From positions 1-64,000 of IMG/VR virus record IMGVR_UViG_3300025133_000077: a DNA stretch of 64,000 nucleotides. One strand, 5' to 3'. Made by a program: the position numbers and the translations under genes. The notes beneath the pieces were generated by a model, which saw only the letters and a list, made by a program, of their open reading frames with translations, did not search any database and had not been told where the DNA came from. Source of the stretch: a virus. Positions 1,115 through 14,148 of the stretch are shown piece after piece (the stretch's first letter is position 1; each line of letters begins with the position of its first letter).

Positions 1115-1467
1115 GGGCACTCCTCGGCGAGCCCCTGGGCTAGCAGCAGGCTCGCCAGGTCACCGGCGAGGGGCTCCCCGTGGCTGTCCATGGGGTACAC
1201 CAAGGCCAGCCAGCGGCCGTACTTGCCGCTCTTGTCCTTGAAGGTGCGGAGCAGCACGGGCTTGTTGAGCACGCGCTCCCTCACGAAGTCGCGGGCCTCT
1301 CGAGCCAGCGCCTTCGTCTCCTCGGTACCTCCTCGGAGCTCGGGCGTGTCGATGCCCTTGAGGCGGAGCTTCTGCTTCTTGAGCACGACGCCGAAGCCGA
1401 GGTCGATGTCCACGGTGAGGGTGTCGCCGTCGTAGACGGCCGTGACGAAGGCGCGGTACTCGTACAT
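1111..1467 (-). CDS. Thermonuclease (staphylococcal nuclease-like), no signal peptide
   Basis: Motifs YDGDT, LRLKGIDTPE and KYGRWLA. The ATG at 1467 overlaps the upstream stop (TGATG). Confidence 0.9.
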   Translation of the reverse strand: MYEYRAFVTAVYDGDTLTVDIDLGFGVVLKKQKLRLKGIDTPELRGGTEETKALAREARDFVRERVLNKPVLLRTFKDKSGKYGRWLALVYPMDSHGEPLAGDLASLLLAQGLAEECP

Positions 1468-4400
1468 CAGGTCCCCTTGCGGGCCCATCCCTGGCGCTTC
1501 TTGTAGCGGATCGGCTTCGGGCGGCCCTGCCGGCGGACGCTCTTCAGCAGCTTGTTGGCGTTGGTGTCCATCTGCTTCGGCAGGATGCCACGGCCCGTCT
1601 TGTCCTTGGCCAGCCCCTTCTTCGGGGCGACCCCGACGAGCCCTCGCTCCGGGATGTAGATCTTGCGGTAGTCCACCGTGACCTCTTCACCCGCCTCCAG
1701 CTCCCGCAGAGCCACCAGGTAGCGGGCCTTGCCCTTCTTCTTGATCTCGGCGTTGGGCTCGTAGCTGTGGTTCGTCTTCCGGCCCTCCGGCGACTGCATC
1801 CCGCGCTCGTCGAAGGCGACGGCGATGGGCTTGCCCTTCTTGACGGGCTCGTCGGTGAAGAAGCCCTTGCCGTGGATCTTGGACGGGTGGACGGCTGCCT
1901 TCTTCTGCAGGGGCAGGTGGTAGCGCAGGAACATCGAGCTCGGCTGGTACTTGTGCAGGAACTCCGACGGCACGTCGGAGGGCCTGAAGTCCTTCCCCAG
2001 CAACGGCTTCCCGTCCTTCGCAGCCCCGCGGTTGTGCTCCTTGCGGATCCTCCTCCGCTCAGCACGACTTCCGAAGCGGATGCCTGGCGTCTTCGCCCAG
2101 ACCGCCTTGCCCTGGTCGTCGGCCTCGGCCCCGACGTGGGTGGCTCCCAGGGACTTGCCGGCCTGCGCGATGCCCTTCATCCCCGCCGCTCCGATGCCAC
2201 GACGACGGAACTCCGGCTTCAGGTACATCGAATCCGCCTCGACGTGCCACTTGCCGCGCAGCAGCTTCTTCTTGAGCGTCAGGTCCGCGGTGCCGTACGA
2301 GAAAGCGTGATCGTCCTCTTGGAAAGGGTTCTTGTCGCCGTCGGTGCGCAGATGGATGGTGGCCTTGGGGCTCATGAACCCCAGCCCTCGGTACGTCTCC
2401 ACCTTGTGGAGCTTGGTGTGCTCGGGCAGGTGCTGCGGAATCGCCTTCTCCAGGTGCTCCCGCAGCACCTTCGGCCGATCCCGCCACCTGGTCTTCGCCA
2501 GCAGCTCGGAAGCCTCCTTCTTCCGCGGGGTCCGAGAAAGCACGAAGCGCTCCTGGGCCGTCAGCGCCTTCTTCCGCCCCTTCGCCACCTTGGCCATCAC
2601 CAAGGCCGTGGAGATGCGCTTCCCGCGCACCGAGCGGTTCCTGAGCGCCTTCTTGAAGTCCTCCACCGAGCAGGCGGAGAGCGAGCCGAAGAACTTGGGG
2701 TTGTCGTAGGCGCGCAGGTACTCCCGCTTCGCCTCCTTCGCCGAGGTGAAGCCGAGCATCACCTTGTCCTCGTCGAAGACCTTGAAGCCGGGCGCCTTCA
2801 TCTGGTGGACGATGTAGACGATGTCGCTCTTCTCGTTCGGGCCCACGTAGACGTCGACGGGGTCGCCGTCGGCGCCGAGGCTCCGCGGCACCTCGCCGTA
2901 GTGGTGCGGCATCACCGTCCGCCACTCCTTGCCCTTGGGGCCCTTGCCCTTGCGCACGGAGCCGCGCTTGTTCTCGATGTTGATCTTGATGCCCTGGAAG
3001 GTGCAGGTGCCCTGGTAGGGGAACTCCTTCCGGTTCCTCTTCGGGGGTGACGTGATCTTGACGGCCGCCGTCTTCGCCTGCCCCGGGGGCTTCGGAGGGG
3101 CGGGCGGCTTCGGCAGCTTGAAGATCTTGCCGCCGGACTCCACCTGCGCTGCTCCCTGCGGAGATCCGAACCGGCGAATCTGCTGCTGCAGGGCGGCCGG
3201 GGCGTGGACCATGCGCTGATCTTGCCCAGCGTCTGCGGCTGCGGTCCTGCCCCGGCGGAGGGCGGACCACGCCCTGTGCATGGGGCTGCCTCGGTACTGC
3301 TCCGTCGGGGCGTTCGAGATGCCTCCCTTCGCGCGGATGAAGCCGAATGCCTGCTTCTGCATCGCGGCCTCGCGAGCATGCCGCTCCCGCCGGGCGCGCA
3401 AGAGGCGGTGCACCCCGTACCCCGCCAGTGCCGTGGCACCGACTGCCGCTCCGCCGATAGCCACCTGTCTGCCTGTCGGCCTCCAGCCGCGCGCTGCGGA
3501 GGGGGGAGCCGAAGTAGGAGTCGGAGCTGGAGTGGGCCGGGAAGCCACCACCTTCTCGGCCACCTGCTTCGCCGCCGGGGCAGCGGCGGGAGCCGGGCGG
3601 GAAGCCACCACCTTCGCAGCTACCTGCTTCGCTGCGGGCGCGGACTTGGCCGCAGCCTCTTGCTTCACCTTCGCTGCAGCAGCGTCCCGCTGCTTCTGGA
3701 AGGCAACGGGACTGACCCCTGCTCGCCGGGCAGGACGCACCACGTCCCGGTGATACCTCTGGTTCTTCAGAGTCTGCTGGTGCCAGTCCAGTTCCTCCGT
3801 CGGCCTACCCGTCCTGACCTTCTCCTGGAGCAGCTCGTGCAGCTTCCTGTGCCGGTGCTCCACCGGGCCCGCTCGATTCTTGAGCAGGTGTCGACTGTGC
3901 CGAAGTTGCGACCTGTCGCCGCCTTCGCGGACCTTCTTCTCGAGGTCCAGGCTGTCCAGGTACTCCAGACGCTTCCACGTCTGCATGTCCTGGCGAGACG
4001 GTTCTCCCGGCCTCCACTTCGGCTCGGCAGGCCGCTTGAGGGTCGAGGGATCCCGCTCTCGCAGGTACCGCGGCTTCCCTGCCATCTTCTCGTGTCCGCC
4101 CAGCACCTGCCGCACCATCATCTGCACGACCGCCCAGAGCTCTGGGCGGTCCATGTCGTCAAGGTGCTGCTTGCCAACTGCCCGTTGACAATCCGCCATG
4201 AAGGCGGGGGAGTTGTCCCATTCCACCCCCAGGTGGTCAGCGATTGCGTGGACCTGCTCCTGGTCGAGCTCCGTGAAGCCGCGGCCCTTGCCCAGGTTCT
4301 GCAGCCACTCCGCGGTGTGCTGGGGCGTGCTGTACCTGCGCTCCTTCCACAGCTGTGGATGAAGGCTGTGGGCAACCCCGTGCCGCTCGAAGAGGGCGAT

Positions 4401-4769
4401 GGTCTGGTCGAGGCCGAACTTGTCGCAGGCCATCTCGAGGTGGATGGTCGGCCGGAAGTCCCGGAGGTACTCCTCGTCGGTGCGGGCGTCGACGACGTGA
4501 CCGAGGTCGTGGTAGCCGGACCAGGCCCGGTCCTCCAGGGAGACCGGGACTCCGCGCCGGCGCATGGCGAGGTAGATGACCTTGTTGACCTCGTCCTGCG
4601 CCGCGTAGCTGGGCATGTCCTCCAGGATGTGGAGGCGGTACCCGTACTTGGCGAGCTCCCCCTCGAGGTTCGAGAGCACGAGCTTCCACGCCCGGCCCTC
4701 CTCCCTCTCGGGAGGACGGTCTACCGCAGCTCCCGTCTTGACGAAGTCGACGAAGTCTTCAGTACGCAT
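1467..4769 (-). CDS. 1100-aa polyvalent protein: zincin-like N-terminus, Ala/Pro/Lys linker, hydrophobic helix, InPase (inorganic pyrophosphatase-like), GNAT acetyltransferase and SET domains
   Basis: HDLGH...E near the N-terminus. InPase: IENKRGSVR...HYGEVPRSLGADGDPVDVYVG...FDEDKVMLGF. GNAT motif A: YLKPEFRRRGIG. SET: SKIHGKGFFT...NHSYEPNA...ALRELEAGEEVTVDY. Confidence 0.8.
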   Translation of the reverse strand: MRTEDFVDFVKTGAAVDRPPEREEGRAWKLVLSNLEGELAKYGYRLHILEDMPSYAAQDEVNKVIYLAMRRRGVPVSLEDRAWSGYHDLGHVVDARTDEEYLRDFRPTIHLEMACDKFGLDQTIALFERHGVAHSLHPQLWKERRYSTPQHTAEWLQNLGKGRGFTELDQEQVHAIADHLGVEWDNSPAFMADCQRAVGKQHLDDMDRPELWAVVQMMVRQVLGGHEKMAGKPRYLRERDPSTLKRPAEPKWRPGEPSRQDMQTWKRLEYLDSLDLEKKVREGGDRSQLRHSRHLLKNRAGPVEHRHRKLHELLQEKVRTGRPTEELDWHQQTLKNQRYHRDVVRPARRAGVSPVAFQKQRDAAAAKVKQEAAAKSAPAAKQVAAKVVASRPAPAAAPAAKQVAEKVVASRPTPAPTPTSAPPSAARGWRPTGRQVAIGGAAVGATALAGYGVHRLLRARRERHAREAAMQKQAFGFIRAKGGISNAPTEQYRGSPMHRAWSALRRGRTAAADAGQDQRMVHAPAALQQQIRRFGSPQGAAQVESGGKIFKLPKPPAPPKPPGQAKTAAVKITSPPKRNRKEFPYQGTCTFQGIKINIENKRGSVRKGKGPKGKEWRTVMPHHYGEVPRSLGADGDPVDVYVGPNEKSDIVYIVHQMKAPGFKVFDEDKVMLGFTSAKEAKREYLRAYDNPKFFGSLSACSVEDFKKALRNRSVRGKRISTALVMAKVAKGRKKALTAQERFVLSRTPRKKEASELLAKTRWRDRPKVLREHLEKAIPQHLPEHTKLHKVETYRGLGFMSPKATIHLRTDGDKNPFQEDDHAFSYGTADLTLKKKLLRGKWHVEADSMYLKPEFRRRGIGAAGMKGIAQAGKSLGATHVGAEADDQGKAVWAKTPGIRFGSRAERRRIRKEHNRGAAKDGKPLLGKDFRPSDVPSEFLHKYQPSSMFLRYHLPLQKKAAVHPSKIHGKGFFTDEPVKKGKPIAVAFDERGMQSPEGRKTNHSYEPNAEIKKKGKARYLVALRELEAGEEVTVDYRKIYIPERGLVGVAPKKGLAKDKTGRGILPKQMDTNANKLLKSVRRQGRPKPIRYKKRQGWARKGT
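3538..3650 (-). repeat. Imperfect 60-bp tandem duplication in the linker of the polyvalent protein
   Basis: Two copies of cgggaagccaccaccttc...cacctgcttcgc 60 nt apart, encoding APAAKQVA(A/E)KVVASRP. Confidence 0.8.
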
Positions 4770-7700
4770 AGGGCTTCTTCTCCGTGCCCTTCCCGAACTG
4801 CGTGCCCAACACCAGCCCGGGGATCGGGTTCGTCCCGTGGATGTTGGTCTTCCAGCCCTGGGCTCCGCCCTCGGTGAGGGTCTTCTTCAGCTCACGGTAG
4901 TTGAGCCGGCCCATCCAGTCCTCGCTGGAGGCCATCGAGACCTCCTGGATGCCCTTGAGCACGGGGTCGTGGTCAGCTCCCTTGCCGCCCTTCTTCCCGA
5001 TCTCCCGGTTCACCTGCTCCAGCTTGGTGGTGGGGACCATGTCCCCTCGCAGGAAGCCGGTGTCCCCGGGCTGCTTGATCATCGAGAGGTTGGTGAGCGA
5101 GCGGACCACGGTCTCCATGTTCCGCTTCTTCACCTTGCCGCCGTAGGCGCCGTGCATCTCGTCGGTGAGGTAGCCCTTGACGCTCTCGATGCCGGCGACT
5201 TCCAGCAGGTGGTGCGGGTTCACGGGGCCGGAGGACAGAGCCTCGCCGAGAGCGACCTCGATCATCAGCGTGCCGCGGAGTGCGCGCATGACCTTGTCGG
5301 AGGGCTTGTTCCTGGCGGGGATGTAGTGGCTCTTCGGCGTGGGGAAGTACTTCCCGTACCGATCCTTGCCGCGGATGTGGACACGCCAGCCGCCGGCGGG
5401 GTCCACCTCGGCCTTCATGATCTGCCCCTTGTACGAGGAGATGGTGGCCTCGCCCGGCAGGGACTTCGTCAGGTGGAGCAGCTGCCCGAGCCGGGTGAAG
5501 GAGTCGGTGCGGCTGGCCTCGGCCTTGCTCACGACACCGCCGGTGTGGAAGGCGTTCATCGAGAGCTGCGTCGCCGGCTCGCCGATGGCCTGGGCCGCCC
5601 AGATGCCCACGTTCTCGCCGAGCGACGGGGAGCTCCCCGCCTCCGTGACGCCGTAGCACATCGCGCACACGCCCTCGGACTCCTCGCACTTCAGCGGGGA
5701 GCGGACGAGGACCTGGGCGACGCCCGAGTTCTTGATCTTGGTCAGCACCTCGGCGGTGAGCAAGGTCTTGCTGGGCACGTCGCCCTTCTTCAGCTTCACG
5801 GGGACCGCGGTGTAGCGGTCGTGGATCTCGGAGTCGGCCACCGACATCAGCACGCCGTTGGTGGTCCCGCAGTCGGGGGAGGTCACCAGCTGGTTGATGT
5901 TGGCGCTGACCAGGTCCTTGGTCAGCTCTCCGGGAGCCTGGGTGCCCTTCACCTTGCCCAGGGTGCCCATGCGAGCGCCGGACAGCGACGCCCAGTACTC
6001 CGCGGCGCTCAGCCCCTCGGAGTAGCTCTTCTTGATGGGGATCGGGACGGCGCTGCCGTTGGGGTCGGTGACCAGCACCGGGGCCAGAGTGAGCTGCTTG
6101 AACTGATCCCAGTTGCCTCGCGCGCCCGACTGCACCATCTCGTACATGCGGTTGCCTGTGCCCTTCATCTTCGCCTTGCCCTCGGCGTCGATCTTGTTCA
6201 GCGCCCCCATGTACGCGTCGACGACGGCCTTGTCGCGGCCCTTGCCCTTCTTCATCGCCTTCGCGGCCTCGCGGTCGGCCTCGGCGAAGTGCTTGTCGCG
6301 GATGTCCGGGCGGGACAGCACGTCCTTCAGGCTGAAGGAGTAGCCCGTGTCGTAGGTGTGCTTGTTGCCCAGCTGGTTCAGCTTGTTGACCGTGATCGAG
6401 AACCTCTGGGGGTGCGCCTTGGCCAACGGAGCCAGCAGGGAGGACACCGCGCCCTTGGTGAGCACCAGCGCCGGGTCCGCCAGGACCTTCTGCCTCTCCT
6501 TGGAGCCCGCGGGGAAGCAGTTGGCCAGCATCAGGCGGCCGACCGTGGTCTTCTGCTGGCCCGCCTCCTTGATCGTCTCGTCGATCTCCGGGGCCCAGTG
6601 CGAGCCTCCTCGCCACCACGCCGCGGTCTTGGTGATCACCGAGGAGCCCACCGTGATCTCCTCGGACGCGGTCACCTTCCCCTTCTTGTACGCCTTGATG
6701 GCGTCGTCGGCGGAGACGAAGGTCTTGCCCGTGCCCTTGCCCCACTTGCTCAGCTGGTAGAGGCCGAGCTGCGCCTCCTGGCTGGGCAGGTTCATCAGCC
6801 GGCCGGAGGAGGCGCTGAACAGGTTGTTCGAGGGCACCATCTTGCGGGCCTCGGCCACAGCCTCCTGGGTCAGTGGAACGTAGATCGCCGTGGTGTCGCC
6901 GTCGAAGTCCGCGTTGAACCCGCCGGTCACCAGGGGGTGGATGCGGATGGCCTTCCCCTTCACCAGCTTCGGGTGGAAGGCCATGATCCCGTGCTTGTGG
7001 AGCACGGGGTCACGCTTCATCAGCACCGGGCGGTCCCGCACGACGGACTCGAGCGCCTTCTTCGCCACCGGATCGTTCTGCTTCACCGCGAGCTGGGCAC
7101 GCAGCGGGGAGTAGCCGAAGACCTGGACCAGCTCCCGCACGACGAAGGGCTTGTACATCTCCATCGCCGCCTTCTGGGGCAGCCCCACCTCGTCCAGTCC
7201 CATCGACTGCTCGGGGATGATCGTGGAGCGCATGGACAGGTCCATGCGGCGGCCGATGATCTTGTTCTGGAAGTAGCCCGACTTCGGCTGCGTCCCCTTC
7301 ACGGTCTCGAGCACGCCGCGGTAGTGCCGGCCCTGGTACTTCTGGCCGTCCATGGTCAGCGCCTTGAGCCCGTCGTACAGCTCGCGGTACAGCGGCACCT
7401 TCTGGTTCTGGGGGAGGCCGGGGTCGAAGTCGCGGAGCTTCTGGTTCGTGAGGGACAGCCCCTTGTAGAGCTGGTTCACGTCGGCCGCCGTGGTGTTGCC
7501 GCTGTCCATCACGGACACGGGGCGGAACTTGGGCGGCATGATCGGGATGTGCTTCCGCATGTACGCGTCGGCGGGGTTGAGCTCGGCCGCCTTCAGCGCC
7601 TGGAGGTAGCGGACACGCCGGCGCAGCCGGCTGAGCTTGTACTTGCGCGCACCCTTCAGGGCGGTCAGCGTCTTCTTCAGCTCTGCGTCCAGGTCCAGGC

Positions 7701-10700
7701 CCCGGAGCGCCTTCTCGATGCCCTCGGCGCCCTTGCCTCCGCCGGGGACCTCCTTCTCGTGCCCCACGATCGCAGCGATGTCCCCCTTCTTGAGGTCCAG
7801 CAGCGACGTGATCGCGTTGTCGAACAGGGGGTTGGGCAGCGCTGTCTCCAGGGTCATGTGCCCCCAGCGCTGCTTGTCCGCGTGCTCCGGGTGCAGGGAG
7901 CCGAAGATCTTCTCGTCGAAGATGCCTCCCTTCTCCGGCTTCATGTCCTTGCCCCGGAACATCCGGCCCGGGTCAGCGACGTGCCCGTTGCTCAGCCCCA
8001 GGACCTGCTTGTCCGTGAGGGGCTTGAGCTGCATCTCGTCGCCCTTCTTCTCCACGTCGAGCCCCATGGTCTTCAGGAACCCCTCGAACTTGTGGTAGGT
8101 GAAGGGGATCTTGGGAGCGGGAAGGGCCTGGCCGGAGTGCAGGGCCGTCCACATGTCGGCGTTGTAGTCCGACTTGTGGGTGTACATCTCCCGGAGGTTG
8201 TGCCGCGCGCCGTGGGCGAGCATGGAGTACAGGCCGAGCGCACTCAGGGACTGGGCGCTGGTGCCACCTCCCTCCTTGGGGGAGCGGTCCAGGTTGTACG
8301 GCGCCGACGTGCCACCGGAGCGGGAGGTCATCTTCTTGGAGACCTTGTGCTTCATCTTGAAGATGTACTGGTTGCCGATCAGCACATCCCCCATCTTCTT
8401 GCCGGTGTCGGGGTCGAAGAGCTCCTCCGTGTCGGACAACCCGTGCTTCTTCAGCTCGGACTGGACCACTCGGCCGTAGTCGGCCTTGCCCTCCTCCTGG
8501 GGGAAGTTGTCGACGTGGTACGCCTTGCCGGACTTCTCCGCGATCTTCCCCGCCAGGGTCTCGAGCACCTGGCCGACGTTGATGCGGGACGGGACGCCGT
8601 GGGGGTTCAGGGCGATGTGGATCTGGTTGCCGTCCTTGGTGACCGGCATCTCCTTGTCGTGCACGATGCGGGAGATGATCCCCTTGTTGCCGTGGCGGCC
8701 GACCAGCTTGTCGCCGACCTGCGCCGGCTCCTCGGTCTTGATGTGGACCTCGATCTGCTTCGCCGTCCGGATGACGCGGACGACCTTGCCCTTGTAGCCC
8801 TTGTCCCAGAGCACCGATCGGTTCGAGTAGTCCTGCACCTTCGAGCGCTTCAGGGCCTGGTAGGCCGCGGCCTCCGAGCCGATCTCCCGCTTCTGCAGCT
8901 TGGCGATGAGGACGTCCCCCTCCTCGACGTCGGAACCGTCCTTGATCACCCCGCGGGGGTCGAGCTTGGCCATCTGCGCCGTCGTCACGGTGCCGGGCGA
9001 GATGTGGGCGAGGAACTTGGCCTTGTCGAACACCGAGTTGCGGTCGATGGTCGTCGACATCCGGTACATGTGCAGGCTGGTGAGCATCGAGGACGCGGAC
9101 TGGGAGATCACCACCCCGTCCTCGAAGTTGTAGCCCTTGAAGGGGACGTAGCCCACGCGGAGGTTCTTGCCGAGGGCGAAGGTCCCGTCCTTCGTGAAGT
9201 TGGTGTCGGCCAGGAGCTGCCCACGCTTCACGCGGTCGCCCACCTTCACCTTCAGGTGGGCGTCGAGGTAGGCCTCGTCCTGGTTGAGGGGGAAGTCCTT
9301 GTAGACCTGGACCTCGTGCTCCTTGCCCGTGCTGTCGCGGATGAACACCGCGTCCTTCACGATCTTCGTCACCACCCCGTTGACCGGCGCCTGGTGGGAG
9401 TTGAAGGAGCCCATCATCTGCTCGAAGGTGTGTCCCTCGCCGGCGTCGGTGGCGCTCTGCACCAGCGGGGCCTCCCGGTGCTTCAACGAGACCACCTGCT
9501 CCTGCATCCGGGACGCCGTCATCGTGCGGTTGCCCTGGTTGTTGTGCAGGAAGGGGATCAGGTTCGTGGGCAGGGAGTACATCCCCTTCGAGGTGAGCAT
9601 CACGTGCGTCACCTCGTTCCAAGGGCGCATCATCACGTCGTTGCCCTTGCCGGCGACGGCGACGTTCTTCGCGTTCTTGGGCAGAGGCATCTCGCCCGCC
9701 CACTTCACCTGGTCGGAGAAGGCCACGACGTACCCCTGGAAGTCGTGCGGAGCCACCTTGTCGATCTTCTTGGTCTTCCGGTTGTACAGGGAGACCCGGA
9801 GCTCTCGGCCCTCCTTCTCCACGCCCAAGGGCAGCTGCAGGGTGATGCCCGTCTTCGCGCCCTCCGGAGTGGTGATGGGGTCCAGGTAGTTCAGGTGCGT
9901 GTTGTTGATCCGCAGTGCCTCCTTCGGCACACGCTGCAGGTCGGACACGGCGCCGGGACCCATGATCGTGGTTCGCATCTGCCCCGACACGAACTCCAGC
10001 GGGTTCGTCTGGTTGGGCATCTGGGCCAGCGACGTGGAGAAGAATGAGCCCATCGGCTTGCCGAAGACCGCGGGGTTGACGATCTGTCTGACCGTGCCCT
10101 TCTTCCCGTCCAGGCCCTGCCGCAGTCGGCGGCCGATCTCAGCGCGGGAGCGGTGCAGTCGGTCGGAGAGGTGGTCCTCGATGGACAGCACGTCCTTGAA
10201 GGCCAGGGACTCGCGGTCGTCCGGGGCAGCCTCACCGCGGGCGAGGCTCAACAGCTTCTTGGAGGAGGTCAGCATGGCCTCCCCGTTCACCGCGGCGAAG
10301 GGCTTGCCGAGCGTGAGCTTGGTGCTGTCCTTCCGCAGCTCCGCCGCGGACAGCGTCTTCCTGACCTCGGCCTGCGCCTCAGCGAGCGTCTCCGCCGACC
10401 CTCCGGTGGTCCTCTTGAGGATCTTGTTCAGGGACTGCAGCTGCTTCTTCTCGTCCCCGTACTTCTTGACCGAGGCGTCGTAGATCTCCCCGCCCCACGC
10501 TTTCTTGATCTTGTCGTCGGGCTCCCCCATCGCCCGGAGCACCGGGTACAGGCCGATGTCCTCCATCGAGCCGAACTTCAAGGTGAAGACGCGCTTCTCG
10601 GGGTGGAAGTAGGACCAGAAGCGGTCCGCCTTCGCGCCCTCCCAGTTGTTGATGTTCCACTGGGTCACCAGGCGCCCCGCCTCGTCCTCCCGGTGGTAGA

Positions 10701-11058
10701 CGCCCGACTTCAGGCGGAACTGGTTGTCGACCTGCCGCTCCTTGCCGTCGACGATGTAGGAGTAGCGTCGGGTGATCTTGGGGATCTTGGCCACGGTGAT
10801 CGTGGACTTGTCGATCACCTCCCCCGTGGTCTTGTCGATCAGGGAGAGACGGGCCTTGACGGGCACTGCCCAGGAGCGCCCGTGCAGCTTCGCCTCCCGC
10901 TGCGAGCGGATGTCGTCGAGGCTCAGGTCGTCGGCGACCCAACACTTCGACATCTCGAGGCGGCGGTTCTGTCCCTCGAAGGGGAAGTGATCGGCGACAG
11001 CCTCCGCGACACGGCTCTTCAGCGTCTCGAAGGCCTCTTCTGGGTCGAGCTGGGCCAT
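4759..11058 (-). CDS. Phage two-barrel DNA-directed RNA polymerase, beta and beta' fused in one polypeptide (about 2099 aa)
   Basis: Beta motifs: QTNPL, TPEG, GKNLRVGY..GYNFEDG, GDKLVGRHGNKG, LNPHGVPSRINVGQ, KMKHKV..KMTSR. Beta' motifs: GGIFDEKIFG, GRRMDLS, RDPVLH, NADFDGD (6895-6915), SGARG, DCGT..RSPLKC..C..CYG, GEPATQL..FHTGG. Start moved to the ATG at 11058 (GAGGA SD). Confidence 0.95.
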   Translation of the reverse strand: MAQLDPEEAFETLKSRVAEAVADHFPFEGQNRRLEMSKCWVADDLSLDDIRSQREAKLHGRSWAVPVKARLSLIDKTTGEVIDKSTITVAKIPKITRRYSYIVDGKERQVDNQFRLKSGVYHREDEAGRLVTQWNINNWEGAKADRFWSYFHPEKRVFTLKFGSMEDIGLYPVLRAMGEPDDKIKKAWGGEIYDASVKKYGDEKKQLQSLNKILKRTTGGSAETLAEAQAEVRKTLSAAELRKDSTKLTLGKPFAAVNGEAMLTSSKKLLSLARGEAAPDDRESLAFKDVLSIEDHLSDRLHRSRAEIGRRLRQGLDGKKGTVRQIVNPAVFGKPMGSFFSTSLAQMPNQTNPLEFVSGQMRTTIMGPGAVSDLQRVPKEALRINNTHLNYLDPITTPEGAKTGITLQLPLGVEKEGRELRVSLYNRKTKKIDKVAPHDFQGYVVAFSDQVKWAGEMPLPKNAKNVAVAGKGNDVMMRPWNEVTHVMLTSKGMYSLPTNLIPFLHNNQGNRTMTASRMQEQVVSLKHREAPLVQSATDAGEGHTFEQMMGSFNSHQAPVNGVVTKIVKDAVFIRDSTGKEHEVQVYKDFPLNQDEAYLDAHLKVKVGDRVKRGQLLADTNFTKDGTFALGKNLRVGYVPFKGYNFEDGVVISQSASSMLTSLHMYRMSTTIDRNSVFDKAKFLAHISPGTVTTAQMAKLDPRGVIKDGSDVEEGDVLIAKLQKREIGSEAAAYQALKRSKVQDYSNRSVLWDKGYKGKVVRVIRTAKQIEVHIKTEEPAQVGDKLVGRHGNKGIISRIVHDKEMPVTKDGNQIHIALNPHGVPSRINVGQVLETLAGKIAEKSGKAYHVDNFPQEEGKADYGRVVQSELKKHGLSDTEELFDPDTGKKMGDVLIGNQYIFKMKHKVSKKMTSRSGGTSAPYNLDRSPKEGGGTSAQSLSALGLYSMLAHGARHNLREMYTHKSDYNADMWTALHSGQALPAPKIPFTYHKFEGFLKTMGLDVEKKGDEMQLKPLTDKQVLGLSNGHVADPGRMFRGKDMKPEKGGIFDEKIFGSLHPEHADKQRWGHMTLETALPNPLFDNAITSLLDLKKGDIAAIVGHEKEVPGGGKGAEGIEKALRGLDLDAELKKTLTALKGARKYKLSRLRRRVRYLQALKAAELNPADAYMRKHIPIMPPKFRPVSVMDSGNTTAADVNQLYKGLSLTNQKLRDFDPGLPQNQKVPLYRELYDGLKALTMDGQKYQGRHYRGVLETVKGTQPKSGYFQNKIIGRRMDLSMRSTIIPEQSMGLDEVGLPQKAAMEMYKPFVVRELVQVFGYSPLRAQLAVKQNDPVAKKALESVVRDRPVLMKRDPVLHKHGIMAFHPKLVKGKAIRIHPLVTGGFNADFDGDTTAIYVPLTQEAVAEARKMVPSNNLFSASSGRLMNLPSQEAQLGLYQLSKWGKGTGKTFVSADDAIKAYKKGKVTASEEITVGSSVITKTAAWWRGGSHWAPEIDETIKEAGQQKTTVGRLMLANCFPAGSKERQKVLADPALVLTKGAVSSLLAPLAKAHPQRFSITVNKLNQLGNKHTYDTGYSFSLKDVLSRPDIRDKHFAEADREAAKAMKKGKGRDKAVVDAYMGALNKIDAEGKAKMKGTGNRMYEMVQSGARGNWDQFKQLTLAPVLVTDPNGSAVPIPIKKSYSEGLSAAEYWASLSGARMGTLGKVKGTQAPGELTKDLVSANINQLVTSPDCGTTNGVLMSVADSEIHDRYTAVPVKLKKGDVPSKTLLTAEVLTKIKNSGVAQVLVRSPLKCEESEGVCAMCYGVTEAGSSPSLGENVGIWAAQAIGEPATQLSMNAFHTGGVVSKAEASRTDSFTRLGQLLHLTKSLPGEATISSYKGQIMKAEVDPAGGWRVHIRGKDRYGKYFPTPKSHYIPARNKPSDKVMRALRGTLMIEVALGEALSSGPVNPHHLLEVAGIESVKGYLTDEMHGAYGGKVKKRNMETVVRSLTNLSMIKQPGDTGFLRGDMVPTTKLEQVNREIGKKGGKGADHDPVLKGIQEVSMASSEDWMGRLNYRELKKTLTEGGAQGWKTNIHGTNPIPGLVLGTQFGKGTEKKPYAY

Positions 11059-12141: not shown

Positions 12142-14148
12142 TCACACCAGCGCCCTGCCGGGGTCTCGCCGGGGCGGCTTCTGCGACGGGAGCGGAGACT
12201 GCTGCGCGTCGAGCGGGTCCCGGGTCTCCTTGGAGCCCTGCATGATCTGCAAGACCAGCGAGTAGAAGTGCGGCTGCGTCGACTTCATCTTCTGCATCGC
12301 CGCGTAGGCGTCCGGCGGCTTCGTCTTGAGCAGCTTCCGCAGCTCGTTCGCCGTCCGCTTGGCCACGTAGAAGACGTCCTGACCCGTGCCCGGGTCAGCC
12401 GTCAGCTGAGAGGACGCCTCCTGCGGGACGCCTGTGACCGGAGAGGACTGCCCGTTCTCCGGGTACAGCTTGGCCCCTGCCGGGCCCTCGACGGGGCCGC
12501 TGCCGCCCTCCTGGCCACCCTCCTGGCCAGGGCCGAGCTGCATGGCTCCGCCCCCGCCCACGAGGTCGGACTGGGCCGCCTGCATGTAGAGCTGCATGAC
12601 CTGCTGAGCCTCGCCCTGGCCGACGGCCGCGGAGACCTGGGCCCGTCGCTGGTCCTCGGCCTGCTTCCTCGACTCGGAGCTGAGCAGCAGCCGCTCGGTC
12701 TCGTAGTCCTCGTTGAGTTCGCGCAGGAAGGTGTGGTCGGAGATCTTGTTGGCCTGGTTGGCCTGGAAGTAGATCATCGTGCGCTGCAGGTCGTCCGCCA
12801 TCTTGAAGCGGCGGAACTTCTTGCCCACGCGGGGCCAGCCCAACCACGCGCCGATGGAGTCGAACACCCAGTCCGTGAGGCCCTGGATGTCGGCGCGGTA
12901 GTTGATGAACTCGTTCTCTAGGTTCCGCATGGAGACCTGCGTGCCGGAGTAGCCGAGGCCGCCGAAGATAAACTCCTGCGGGACGTGGAGGCCGGCGACG
13001 ATGTTCTCTGCCCAGACGCGGTACTCCTGGTGGAGCACCATCGCTCGGCCCTGGCCGCCGACCATCTGGTGTCCCACGGGGAGGGGCAGGATCGGGATGT
13101 AGTTGGGGTCCCGCCGCCACCGCTCGATCTCCTCCTCCATCTGGCTCTTCCAGCCGGTGAGGGGCATCGTGGTGTACGGGTCGCTGGTCCCGGAGCCGGG
13201 CTGCGGGAAGATCATGCGCAGCGGCACGATGTGCTCGCGGGCGATGGCTTCCTGGCCCTTCTTGAGGATCTGCAGGTAGTAGGAGTCCTTGAGCACCGGC
13301 AGGATGCGGGACAGACCCCAGCCCTTGTCGTTCCCGTTGCCCGAGATGGACGGGCGCCGCATGTGGAAGAGCTGGCCCGGGGCGAACCGGAGGCCGGTCT
13401 TCTTGCGGGCGGCCTCGACGAAGACGTTGGGGATCTCCTCCTGAAGGTGGTTCCTTCCGATCATCAGCCGCGCCCGCGTGCGGGGGCTCATCTCGTAGTA
13501 GTACCTGCAGTGCCCGGTCTCCTCGTTCACATCGATGGCGATGCGCTCGGGGTCCCACCGGACGAGCCCGATCTTGTACGGGCTCCGCTGCCAGACATCG
13601 AGGGGCTTGGCGTTGCCCACCTTCCTGCACTTGGGGCAGGTGAGGCGGTAGTTCAGCTCCCGCCACTTGTAGTGGGGCCGCAGCTTCTTCGCCGGCGCCT
13701 GGTACTTGCAGTGGTTGCACTGCAGGAACTTCACGAAGGGGTAGTTGATCGAGGTGAAGGAGTTGCCGTAGCACTGGTAGTCCAGGCCGGTCTCCACCTG
13801 GAAGCTGCGGAACTTCAGGATCTGGTCCTTGAGGTACTTGTACTTCCGCGCCACCGCCTCGTGCTTGCTCTCGAACACCAGGTCGGTGATCGGGTACGAG
13901 GCCATCTTGTAGATGACCGCGTTCACCAGCGGGTTGGTGAAGAAGTAGTAGCGGCACCAGCGGAACAGCTTCTTCTGCGACGAGGGCAGGTAGGTGTGCG
14001 CTCCGTCGAAGAAGGGGCTGGGGTACGGCACGCCGGCCCGGCCCGAGGCCCCGAAGAAGCCCGAGCGCAGGTTGGCGAAGCCGCTGCCTCCGGCGGTGCC
14101 GCCGCTCACCCCGTACGTGGGCAGCCCGAAGTCGAATCCCTCAGCCAT
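12142..14148 (-). CDS. Putative portal protein with Zn-ribbon insertion
   Basis: Portal-like pattern: RWCRYYFFTNPLVNAVIYKMASYPI, DYQCYGNSF, LFHMRRP...GWGLSRILPVLK, IVAGLHVPQEFIFGG; Gly/Gln/Pro-rich C-terminal tail. Confidence 0.7.
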   Translation of the reverse strand: MAEGFDFGLPTYGVSGGTAGGSGFANLRSGFFGASGRAGVPYPSPFFDGAHTYLPSSQKKLFRWCRYYFFTNPLVNAVIYKMASYPITDLVFESKHEAVARKYKYLKDQILKFRSFQVETGLDYQCYGNSFTSINYPFVKFLQCNHCKYQAPAKKLRPHYKWRELNYRLTCPKCRKVGNAKPLDVWQRSPYKIGLVRWDPERIAIDVNEETGHCRYYYEMSPRTRARLMIGRNHLQEEIPNVFVEAARKKTGLRFAPGQLFHMRRPSISGNGNDKGWGLSRILPVLKDSYYLQILKKGQEAIAREHIVPLRMIFPQPGSGTSDPYTTMPLTGWKSQMEEEIERWRRDPNYIPILPLPVGHQMVGGQGRAMVLHQEYRVWAENIVAGLHVPQEFIFGGLGYSGTQVSMRNLENEFINYRADIQGLTDWVFDSIGAWLGWPRVGKKFRRFKMADDLQRTMIYFQANQANKISDHTFLRELNEDYETERLLLSSESRKQAEDQRRAQVSAAVGQGEAQQVMQLYMQAAQSDLVGGGGAMQLGPGQEGGQEGGSGPVEGPAGAKLYPENGQSSPVTGVPQEASSQLTADPGTGQDVFYVAKRTANELRKLLKTKPPDAYAAMQKMKSTQPHFYSLVLQIMQGSKETRDPLDAQQSPLPSQKPPRRDPGRALV

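What the first reader, a model, noticed from the sequence alone, without database searches (positions are those of the whole stretch)
1467..4769. Polyvalent protein combining pyrophosphatase-like, acetyltransferase and SET methyltransferase domains
Domain order: zincin-like HDLGH (about 4500), basic helical region, repeat linker, hydrophobic helix (about 3420-3460), InPase (about 2645-3030), GNAT (about 2090-2300), minimal SET (about 1665-1895). InPase, GNAT and zincin domains are known in phage/plasmid polyvalent proteins. A SET domain beside a GNAT (a lysine methyl and acetyl writer pair) is unusual in a phage. Possible substrates in the window are HU (27535), the H1-like protein (33708) and the Lys-rich peptides (11177, 62584); this is inference. 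The zincin has D instead of the catalytic E and may be inactive.
Basis: partly seen in the sequence, partly recalled or inferred. Interest (0 to 1): 0.8.

Follow-up and report, generated by a model that had tools for sequence, protein, structure and literature searches.

The report
Phage multi-enzyme cargo protein with SET
An uncultured, GC-rich phage encodes, right after its portal and its own RNA polymerase, a 1100-residue modular protein that strings together a protease-like domain, a pyrophosphatase, an acetyltransferase and a very small SET methyltransferase domain; it is most likely carried in the phage head and released into the host, and a SET domain was not listed in the 2017 catalogue of such phage cargo proteins.

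Summary
- an IrrE/ImmA-like zincin fold with a conserved HDLGH motif
- a basic helical region and an Ala/Pro repeat
- a moderately hydrophobic Gly/Ala helix
- InPase (PF18823, E 2e-39)
- GNAT (PF00583, above the gathering score; its best fold match is the NatD structure)
- a roughly 90-aa "mini" SET (PF00856, above the gathering score; fold Z 10-11 to EZH2 and MLL1; the GxG, NHS and DY motifs are intact, but the SET-I insert is missing)
- a conserved basic tail

The gene overlaps the stop of a fused beta-beta' RNA polymerase gene, which lies downstream of a probable portal. This order is conserved in three related viral contigs.

Relatives keep the N-domain but swap, insert or drop the cargo modules. 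The swap points fall at K-x-A sites: 29 of 41 alignment ends, against 4.4 expected. This suggests a protease-cut polyprotein.

SET plus this GNAT module occurs only in this clade among the hits examined. The mini-SET itself is common in unnamed metagenomic proteins, some fused to phage lysozyme, SLT or polyvalent-protein domains.

Verdict: a new variant of a known kind (phage polyvalent protein). Packaging, cleavage, enzyme activities and substrates are all inferred.

The parts
4095..4769 (-). N-terminal domain (residues 1-225): IrrE/ImmA-like zincin fold with HDLGH (87-91) and invariant E112. It is the constant part of the family
   Evidence: AF2 model, pLDDT 80.6. VIA-align: PprI/IrrE 8sln Z 8.2, Mtb XRE-COG2856 6d2s Z 8.1, CapP Z 6.6, ArdC Z 6.1; almost all top rows are zincins. 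Atlas lead to IrrE N-terminal-like / Peptidase_M78 clusters at 0.84-0.86. H87, D88, H91 and E112 are invariant in 4-5 homologues. No Pfam hit.
3480..4076 (-). Basic helical region (232-370; 35 K+R against 19 D+E) and Ala/Pro-rich repeat linker (371-430)
   Evidence: Composition and repeat read from the sequence. Shared with P0004 and absent from P0003.
3408..3464 (-). Gly/Ala-rich, moderately hydrophobic helix (436-454); a possible membrane or glycine-zipper segment
   Evidence: Highest 19-residue Kyte-Doolittle mean of the protein, 1.29, which is below the usual transmembrane cut-off.
3075..3353 (-). Conserved module of unknown function (473-565, GISNAPTEQYRG ... KLPKPP)
   Evidence: Conserved in P0003 and P0004 at different positions. 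No family hit.
2535..3071 (-). InPase module (567-745; Pfam match 586-709) with DGDPVDV (634-640) and DEDK (666-669)
   Evidence: PF18823, E 2.3e-39. Matches PDB 9b41 gp19 portal C-terminal domain, E 2.7e-18, and the YG.VPR..D.DP.DV motif of true pyrophosphatases. 461 phage records match this part only.
1905..2516 (-). GNAT module (752-955) with N-terminal helices and the acetyl-CoA motif RRRGIGA (855-861)
   Evidence: PF00583, 23.2 bits against GA 20.7. AF2 pLDDT above 90. NatD 4u9w Z 10.1 over 153 residues, followed by many other GNATs. About 20 relatives at 26-41% identity, fused to InPase, SNF2 helicase or LigD-PE.
1635..1898 (-). Mini SET domain (958-1045): IHGKGF (965-970), NHS (1000-1002), VDY (1032-1034); no SET-I insert
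   Evidence: PF00856, 28.9 bits against GA 22.4, C-terminal half of the profile only. Foldseek: MLL1 E 3e-5, vSET 1.4e-4. VIA-align: EZH2 Z 11.0, MLL1 Z 10.5, about 80 residues at 2.0-2.4 A and 31-32% identity. S, I, G, G, N, H, E and Y are invariant in 38-43 relatives.
1470..1634 (-). Conserved basic C-terminal tail (1046-1100; 18 K+R against 2 D+E) ending in GWARKGT
   Evidence: Conserved in P0003, P0004 and P0009. Low pLDDT.
4759..11058 (-). Upstream gene: fused RNA polymerase beta-beta'. Its stop overlaps the ATG of the finding by 11 nt
   Evidence: Seven Rpb2/Rpb1 Pfam domains in one frame. Overlap read. The same order is seen in L002, L003 and L005.
12142..14148 (-). Probable portal protein at the head of the same-strand gene block
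   Evidence: Atlas: all ten best named clusters are portal families (score 0.93) and structure TM is 0.65-0.70 to portal clusters. No Pfam, PHROG or PDB sequence hit, so this is a lead rather than proof.

Best explanation
The gene encodes a modular phage 'polyvalent' cargo protein. It is made together with the phage's own fused RNA polymerase, in the gene block that starts with the probable portal.

A constant N-terminal IrrE/ImmA-like zincin-type domain (HDxxH) carries a variable train of effector modules. In this phage the train is an InPase pyrophosphatase, an N-acetyltransferase-like GNAT and a minimal SET methyltransferase, followed by a basic tail.

The modules are joined by short K-x-A linkers. 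These are most likely protease cutting sites (the head-maturation protease or the N-domain itself), so the product would behave as a polyprotein.

Inferred steps: the protein or its pieces are packed into the head and leave it with the DNA. The InPase removes pyrophosphate (or a nucleotide signal) to favour early transcription by the co-delivered polymerase. The GNAT and SET use acetyl-CoA and SAM to modify host or phage proteins, such as RNA polymerase or nucleoid proteins, during takeover.

Shown here: the domains, their intact cofactor and catalytic motifs, the conserved gene order, and module shuffling at K-x-A sites. Not shown: packaging, cleavage, activities and substrates.
For: Domains: Pfam hits above the curated cut-offs; confident AF2 models; fold matches to zincins, GNATs and SET enzymes.

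Intact motifs:
- DGDPVDV and DEDK in the InPase
- RRRGIGA in the GNAT
- IHGKGF, NHS and VDY in the SET; the same positions are invariant across 38-43 mini-SET relatives

Class: InPase, GNAT and zincin are recurrent parts of virion-packaged polyvalent proteins, and InPase is fused to portals (PMC5512222; PDB 9b41 portal; PHROG 'minor head protein' and 'virion structural protein' families).

Context: an 11-nt overlap with the RNAP gene; a probable portal upstream; the order RNAP then N-domain gene is conserved in L002, L003 and L005; a large terminase lies about 8 kb downstream in L003.

Modularity:
- P0003 and P0004 share the N-domain, GNAT, SET and tail but insert or replace modules.
- P0005 and P0006 carry a glycosyltransferase instead.
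- L005 has the N-domain as a stand-alone 226-aa gene.

Junction motif: 29 of 41 HSP ends lie within 6 residues of a K-x-A site, against a random mean of 4.4 and a maximum of 14 in 5000 trials. Distant GNAT-module relatives also end in P(L/V)-x-K-x-A.

Precedent for a phage GNAT acting on host RNAP: LUZ19 Rac, as cited in PMC7824862.
Against: - There are no virion proteomics. The portal call rests on embedding and predicted-structure similarity only. The genes just downstream have no recognisable family.
- K-x-A is not enriched overall in these proteins compared with shuffled sequences, and no cut has been measured.
- The zincin motif has Asp where the catalytic Glu should be, and no M78 profile hit was obtained.
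- The SET lacks the SET-I region, and only the C-terminal half of the Pfam profile matches.
- The GNAT score is only just above its threshold.
- The hydrophobic helix is weak.
- Substrates are unknown.
Confidence: 0.6

Rival explanations
1. The protein is a cytoplasmic, non-packaged accessory of the phage transcription machinery. It is made with the phage RNA polymerase and acts inside the infected cell on the phage's own proteins (RNAP, the HU-like protein, the Lys-rich H1-like protein) rather than being injected.
For: Translational coupling to the RNAP gene. HU-like and H1-like phage ORFs exist in the window. No direct evidence of packaging. The downstream genes are unidentifiable.
Against: The InPase family is typical of head, portal and minor-head proteins. 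The gene block begins with a probable portal. Junction motifs and cargo shuffling behind a constant N-domain are typical of head cargo.
Confidence: 0.2
2. The GNAT and mini-SET are not protein writers. They would act on small molecules, nucleotides or charged tRNA (as in the SET-fold methionine methyltransferase BurB or the TacT/AtaT tRNA-acetylating GNATs), or the mini-SET is only a binding module.
For: BurB 9l4t Z 8.3, and AtaT, TacT and GNA1 Z 8.1-9.1, are in the same list as the protein-modifying enzymes. The SET-I substrate-groove region is missing. Iyer et al. also consider nucleotide-like substrates for the neighbouring InPase.
Against: The best SET matches, at 30-32% identity, are protein lysine methyltransferases. 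The best GNAT match is NatD, and the polyvalent-protein GNATs were placed in the RimI-like protein-acetylating clade (PMC5512222). The catalytic Tyr of the DY motif is invariant.
Confidence: 0.15
3. It is one uncut multidomain protein. The K-x-A sites would be neutral linker composition or recombination joints without proteolysis, and the N-domain an inactive scaffold.
For: K-x-A is not over-represented against shuffled sequences. Lys and Ala are abundant. HDxxH lacks the canonical Glu.
Against: The coincidence of K-x-A with module borders is far beyond chance, and it recurs in distant relatives. The N-domain is strongly conserved, even as a stand-alone gene.
Confidence: 0.25

Closest known systems
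Phage and plasmid polyvalent proteins (Iyer, Burroughs, Anand, de Souza, Aravind 2017, PMC5512222)
   Same: Many unrelated enzymatic domains in one polypeptide of a phage. A zincin-type peptidase domain acts as the hub. InPase and RimI-like GNAT domains are present. The gene is encoded with late or head genes, and delivery with the DNA is predicted.
   Different: A SET domain is not in that catalogue. The zincin here is IrrE/ImmA-like with HDxxH. There is no MuF domain. The gene follows a fused multisubunit-type RNAP rather than being fused to an N4-type RNAP. Modules are delimited by K-x-A junctions.
Pbunavirus-type portal with C-terminal InPase domain (PDB 9b41 gp19; phrog_4660)
   Same: The InPase domain aligns over 591-711 at E 2.7e-18, and the location is head-associated.
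   Different: There the InPase is fused to the portal itself. Here it is an internal module of a separate cargo protein.
Minimal viral SET enzyme vSET (PBCV-1 A612L; PDB 3kma, 1n3j) and the eukaryotic MLL/EZH2 SET cores
   Same: SET fold, SAM-binding GxG and NHS motifs, and the catalytic Tyr in the DY motif. Like vSET, it has no pre-SET or post-SET zinc clusters.
   Different: It is about 30 residues shorter than vSET because the SET-I insert is absent. It is embedded in a phage polyprotein. The host is a bacterium without histones, and the substrate is unknown.
Phage host-takeover modifiers: T4 Alt (packaged ADP-ribosyltransferase) and LUZ19 Rac (GNAT acetylating RNAP alpha)
   Same: The proposed logic is the same: a phage enzyme covalently modifies host proteins early in infection (cited).
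   Different: No sequence relationship was tested. The chemistry differs for the SET. Nothing has been shown experimentally here.
ImmA/IrrE (Peptidase M78, COG2856) metallopeptidases
   Same: They are the best fold matches of the N-domain (PprI 8sln Z 8.2, 6d2s Z 8.1). The layout is HxxxH plus a downstream Glu.
   Different: Catalytic Glu is replaced by a conserved Asp. There is no profile hit. There is no partner HTH repressor. The domain sits at the N-terminus of head-cargo proteins.

Membership tests
Polyvalent proteins of phages and conjugative elements | Two or more unrelated effector or enzymatic domains in one polypeptide of a mobile element | tested here: met
   Zincin-like, InPase, GNAT and SET domains in one 1100-aa phage ORF.
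Polyvalent proteins of phages and conjugative elements | Encoded with virion or late genes and packaged or delivered with the DNA | tested here: inconclusive
   A probable portal and the RNAP lie upstream, and a terminase lies nearby in L003. Packaging itself cannot be tested with these tools.
InPase (PF18823, type I pyrophosphatase-like) | Profile match above the gathering score | tested here: met
   134.8 bits against 26.8.
InPase (PF18823, type I pyrophosphatase-like) | Conserved acidic metal-binding residues (DxDxxD and a downstream acidic cluster) | tested here: met
   DGDPVDV at 634-640 and DEDK at 666-669. Aligned to true PPases.
SET domain methyltransferases (PF00856) | Profile match above the gathering score | tested here: met
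   28.9 bits against 22.4, but only profile positions 49-104 of 105.
SET domain methyltransferases (PF00856) | SET fold with GxG and NHS SAM-binding motifs and the catalytic Tyr of the (E)LxxDY motif | tested here: met
   Z 10.5-11.0 at rmsd 2.0-2.4 A over about 80 residues. Motifs at 965-970, 1000-1002 and 1032-1034, invariant in relatives.
SET domain methyltransferases (PF00856) | SET-I insert that completes the substrate groove and lysine channel | tested here: not met
   Only about 14 residues lie between the second strand and NHS, against about 45 in vSET. About 80 residues align to chain spans of 115-127.
SET domain methyltransferases (PF00856) | SAM-dependent methyl transfer to lysine | not testable with these tools
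   Needs a biochemical assay.
GNAT acetyltransferases (PF00583) | Profile match above the gathering score and the GNAT fold | tested here: met
   23.2 bits against 20.7. NatD Z 10.1 over 153 residues, and more than 25 further GNAT structures at Z 8.1 or higher.
GNAT acetyltransferases (PF00583) | Motif A (Q/R-x-x-G-x-G/A) for acetyl-CoA pyrophosphate binding | tested here: met
   RRRGIGA at 855-861. Conserved as R/Q-x-x-G-x-G/A in relatives.
ImmA/IrrE zincins (Peptidase_M78) | HExxH with catalytic Glu | tested here: not met
   HDLGH, with the Asp invariant in all homologues.
ImmA/IrrE zincins (Peptidase_M78) | Profile match or clear fold match | tested here: inconclusive
   No Pfam hit at E<=1. 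Fold Z 8.2 and 8.1, with zincins filling the list. Atlas score 0.84-0.86, a lead only.

The most novel reading that the evidence does not exclude
Phages of this uncultured clade, and by extension many others that carry the same roughly 90-residue mini-SET in lysozyme-, SLT- or ART-bearing virion proteins, inject a SAM-dependent protein lysine methyltransferase into bacteria, here paired with an acetyltransferase. This would make covalent 'chromatin-style' marking of bacterial nucleoid or transcription proteins a phage takeover strategy. It would be delivered as a K-x-A-processed polyprotein alongside a virion RNA polymerase.
Probability: 0.3. Interest if true: 0.8.

Novelty: new variant of a known kind. 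Interest (0 to 1): 0.6.

Why it matters
Protein lysine methylation by SET enzymes is known mainly from eukaryotic chromatin, a few giant-virus and archaeal enzymes, and bacterial effectors aimed at eukaryotic hosts. In the paper searches run here I found no functional study of a phage SET enzyme, and the reference catalogue of phage polyvalent proteins does not list the domain.

If the mini-SET and its GNAT neighbour are active and delivered from the head, they would add methylation, next to ADP-ribosylation, acetylation and phosphorylation, to the ways phages reprogramme bacteria.

The roughly 90-residue SET would also be among the smallest SET catalytic units known, which makes it useful for structural work and enzyme engineering.

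The module shuffling at K-x-A junctions gives a testable rule for predicting the mature cargo pieces.

Tried and rejected
The 188-kb contig that also carries this protein, and the contexts of P0003-P0006, could therefore not be fetched. Related IMG/VR loci were used instead.
- Whole-protein tblastn against 50,697 phage records found only the InPase part.
- The N-domain and the GNAT module gave no match there.
- The SET gave six records, all small ORFs.
- The word-based homologue search for short proteins covering 745-1100 found one fragment only.
- Pfam, PHROGs and PDB sequence searches of the neighbouring genes (373/374 aa, 694-764 aa, 297-330 aa, 332 aa, 450 aa) gave nothing usable. The head protease, scaffold and capsid genes were therefore not identified.
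- Overall enrichment of K-x-A was tested and not found. Only its position at module borders is significant.
- NCBIfam added nothing.
- TRF did not detect the Ala/Pro repeat at the DNA level.
- Literature searches for SET domains in phage polyvalent or jumbo-phage proteins returned only one passing annotation, Stenotrophomonas phage Ps15 ORF62.
- The idea that the zincin is a decayed relic was rejected, because HDxxH and E112 are invariant even in the stand-alone gene.

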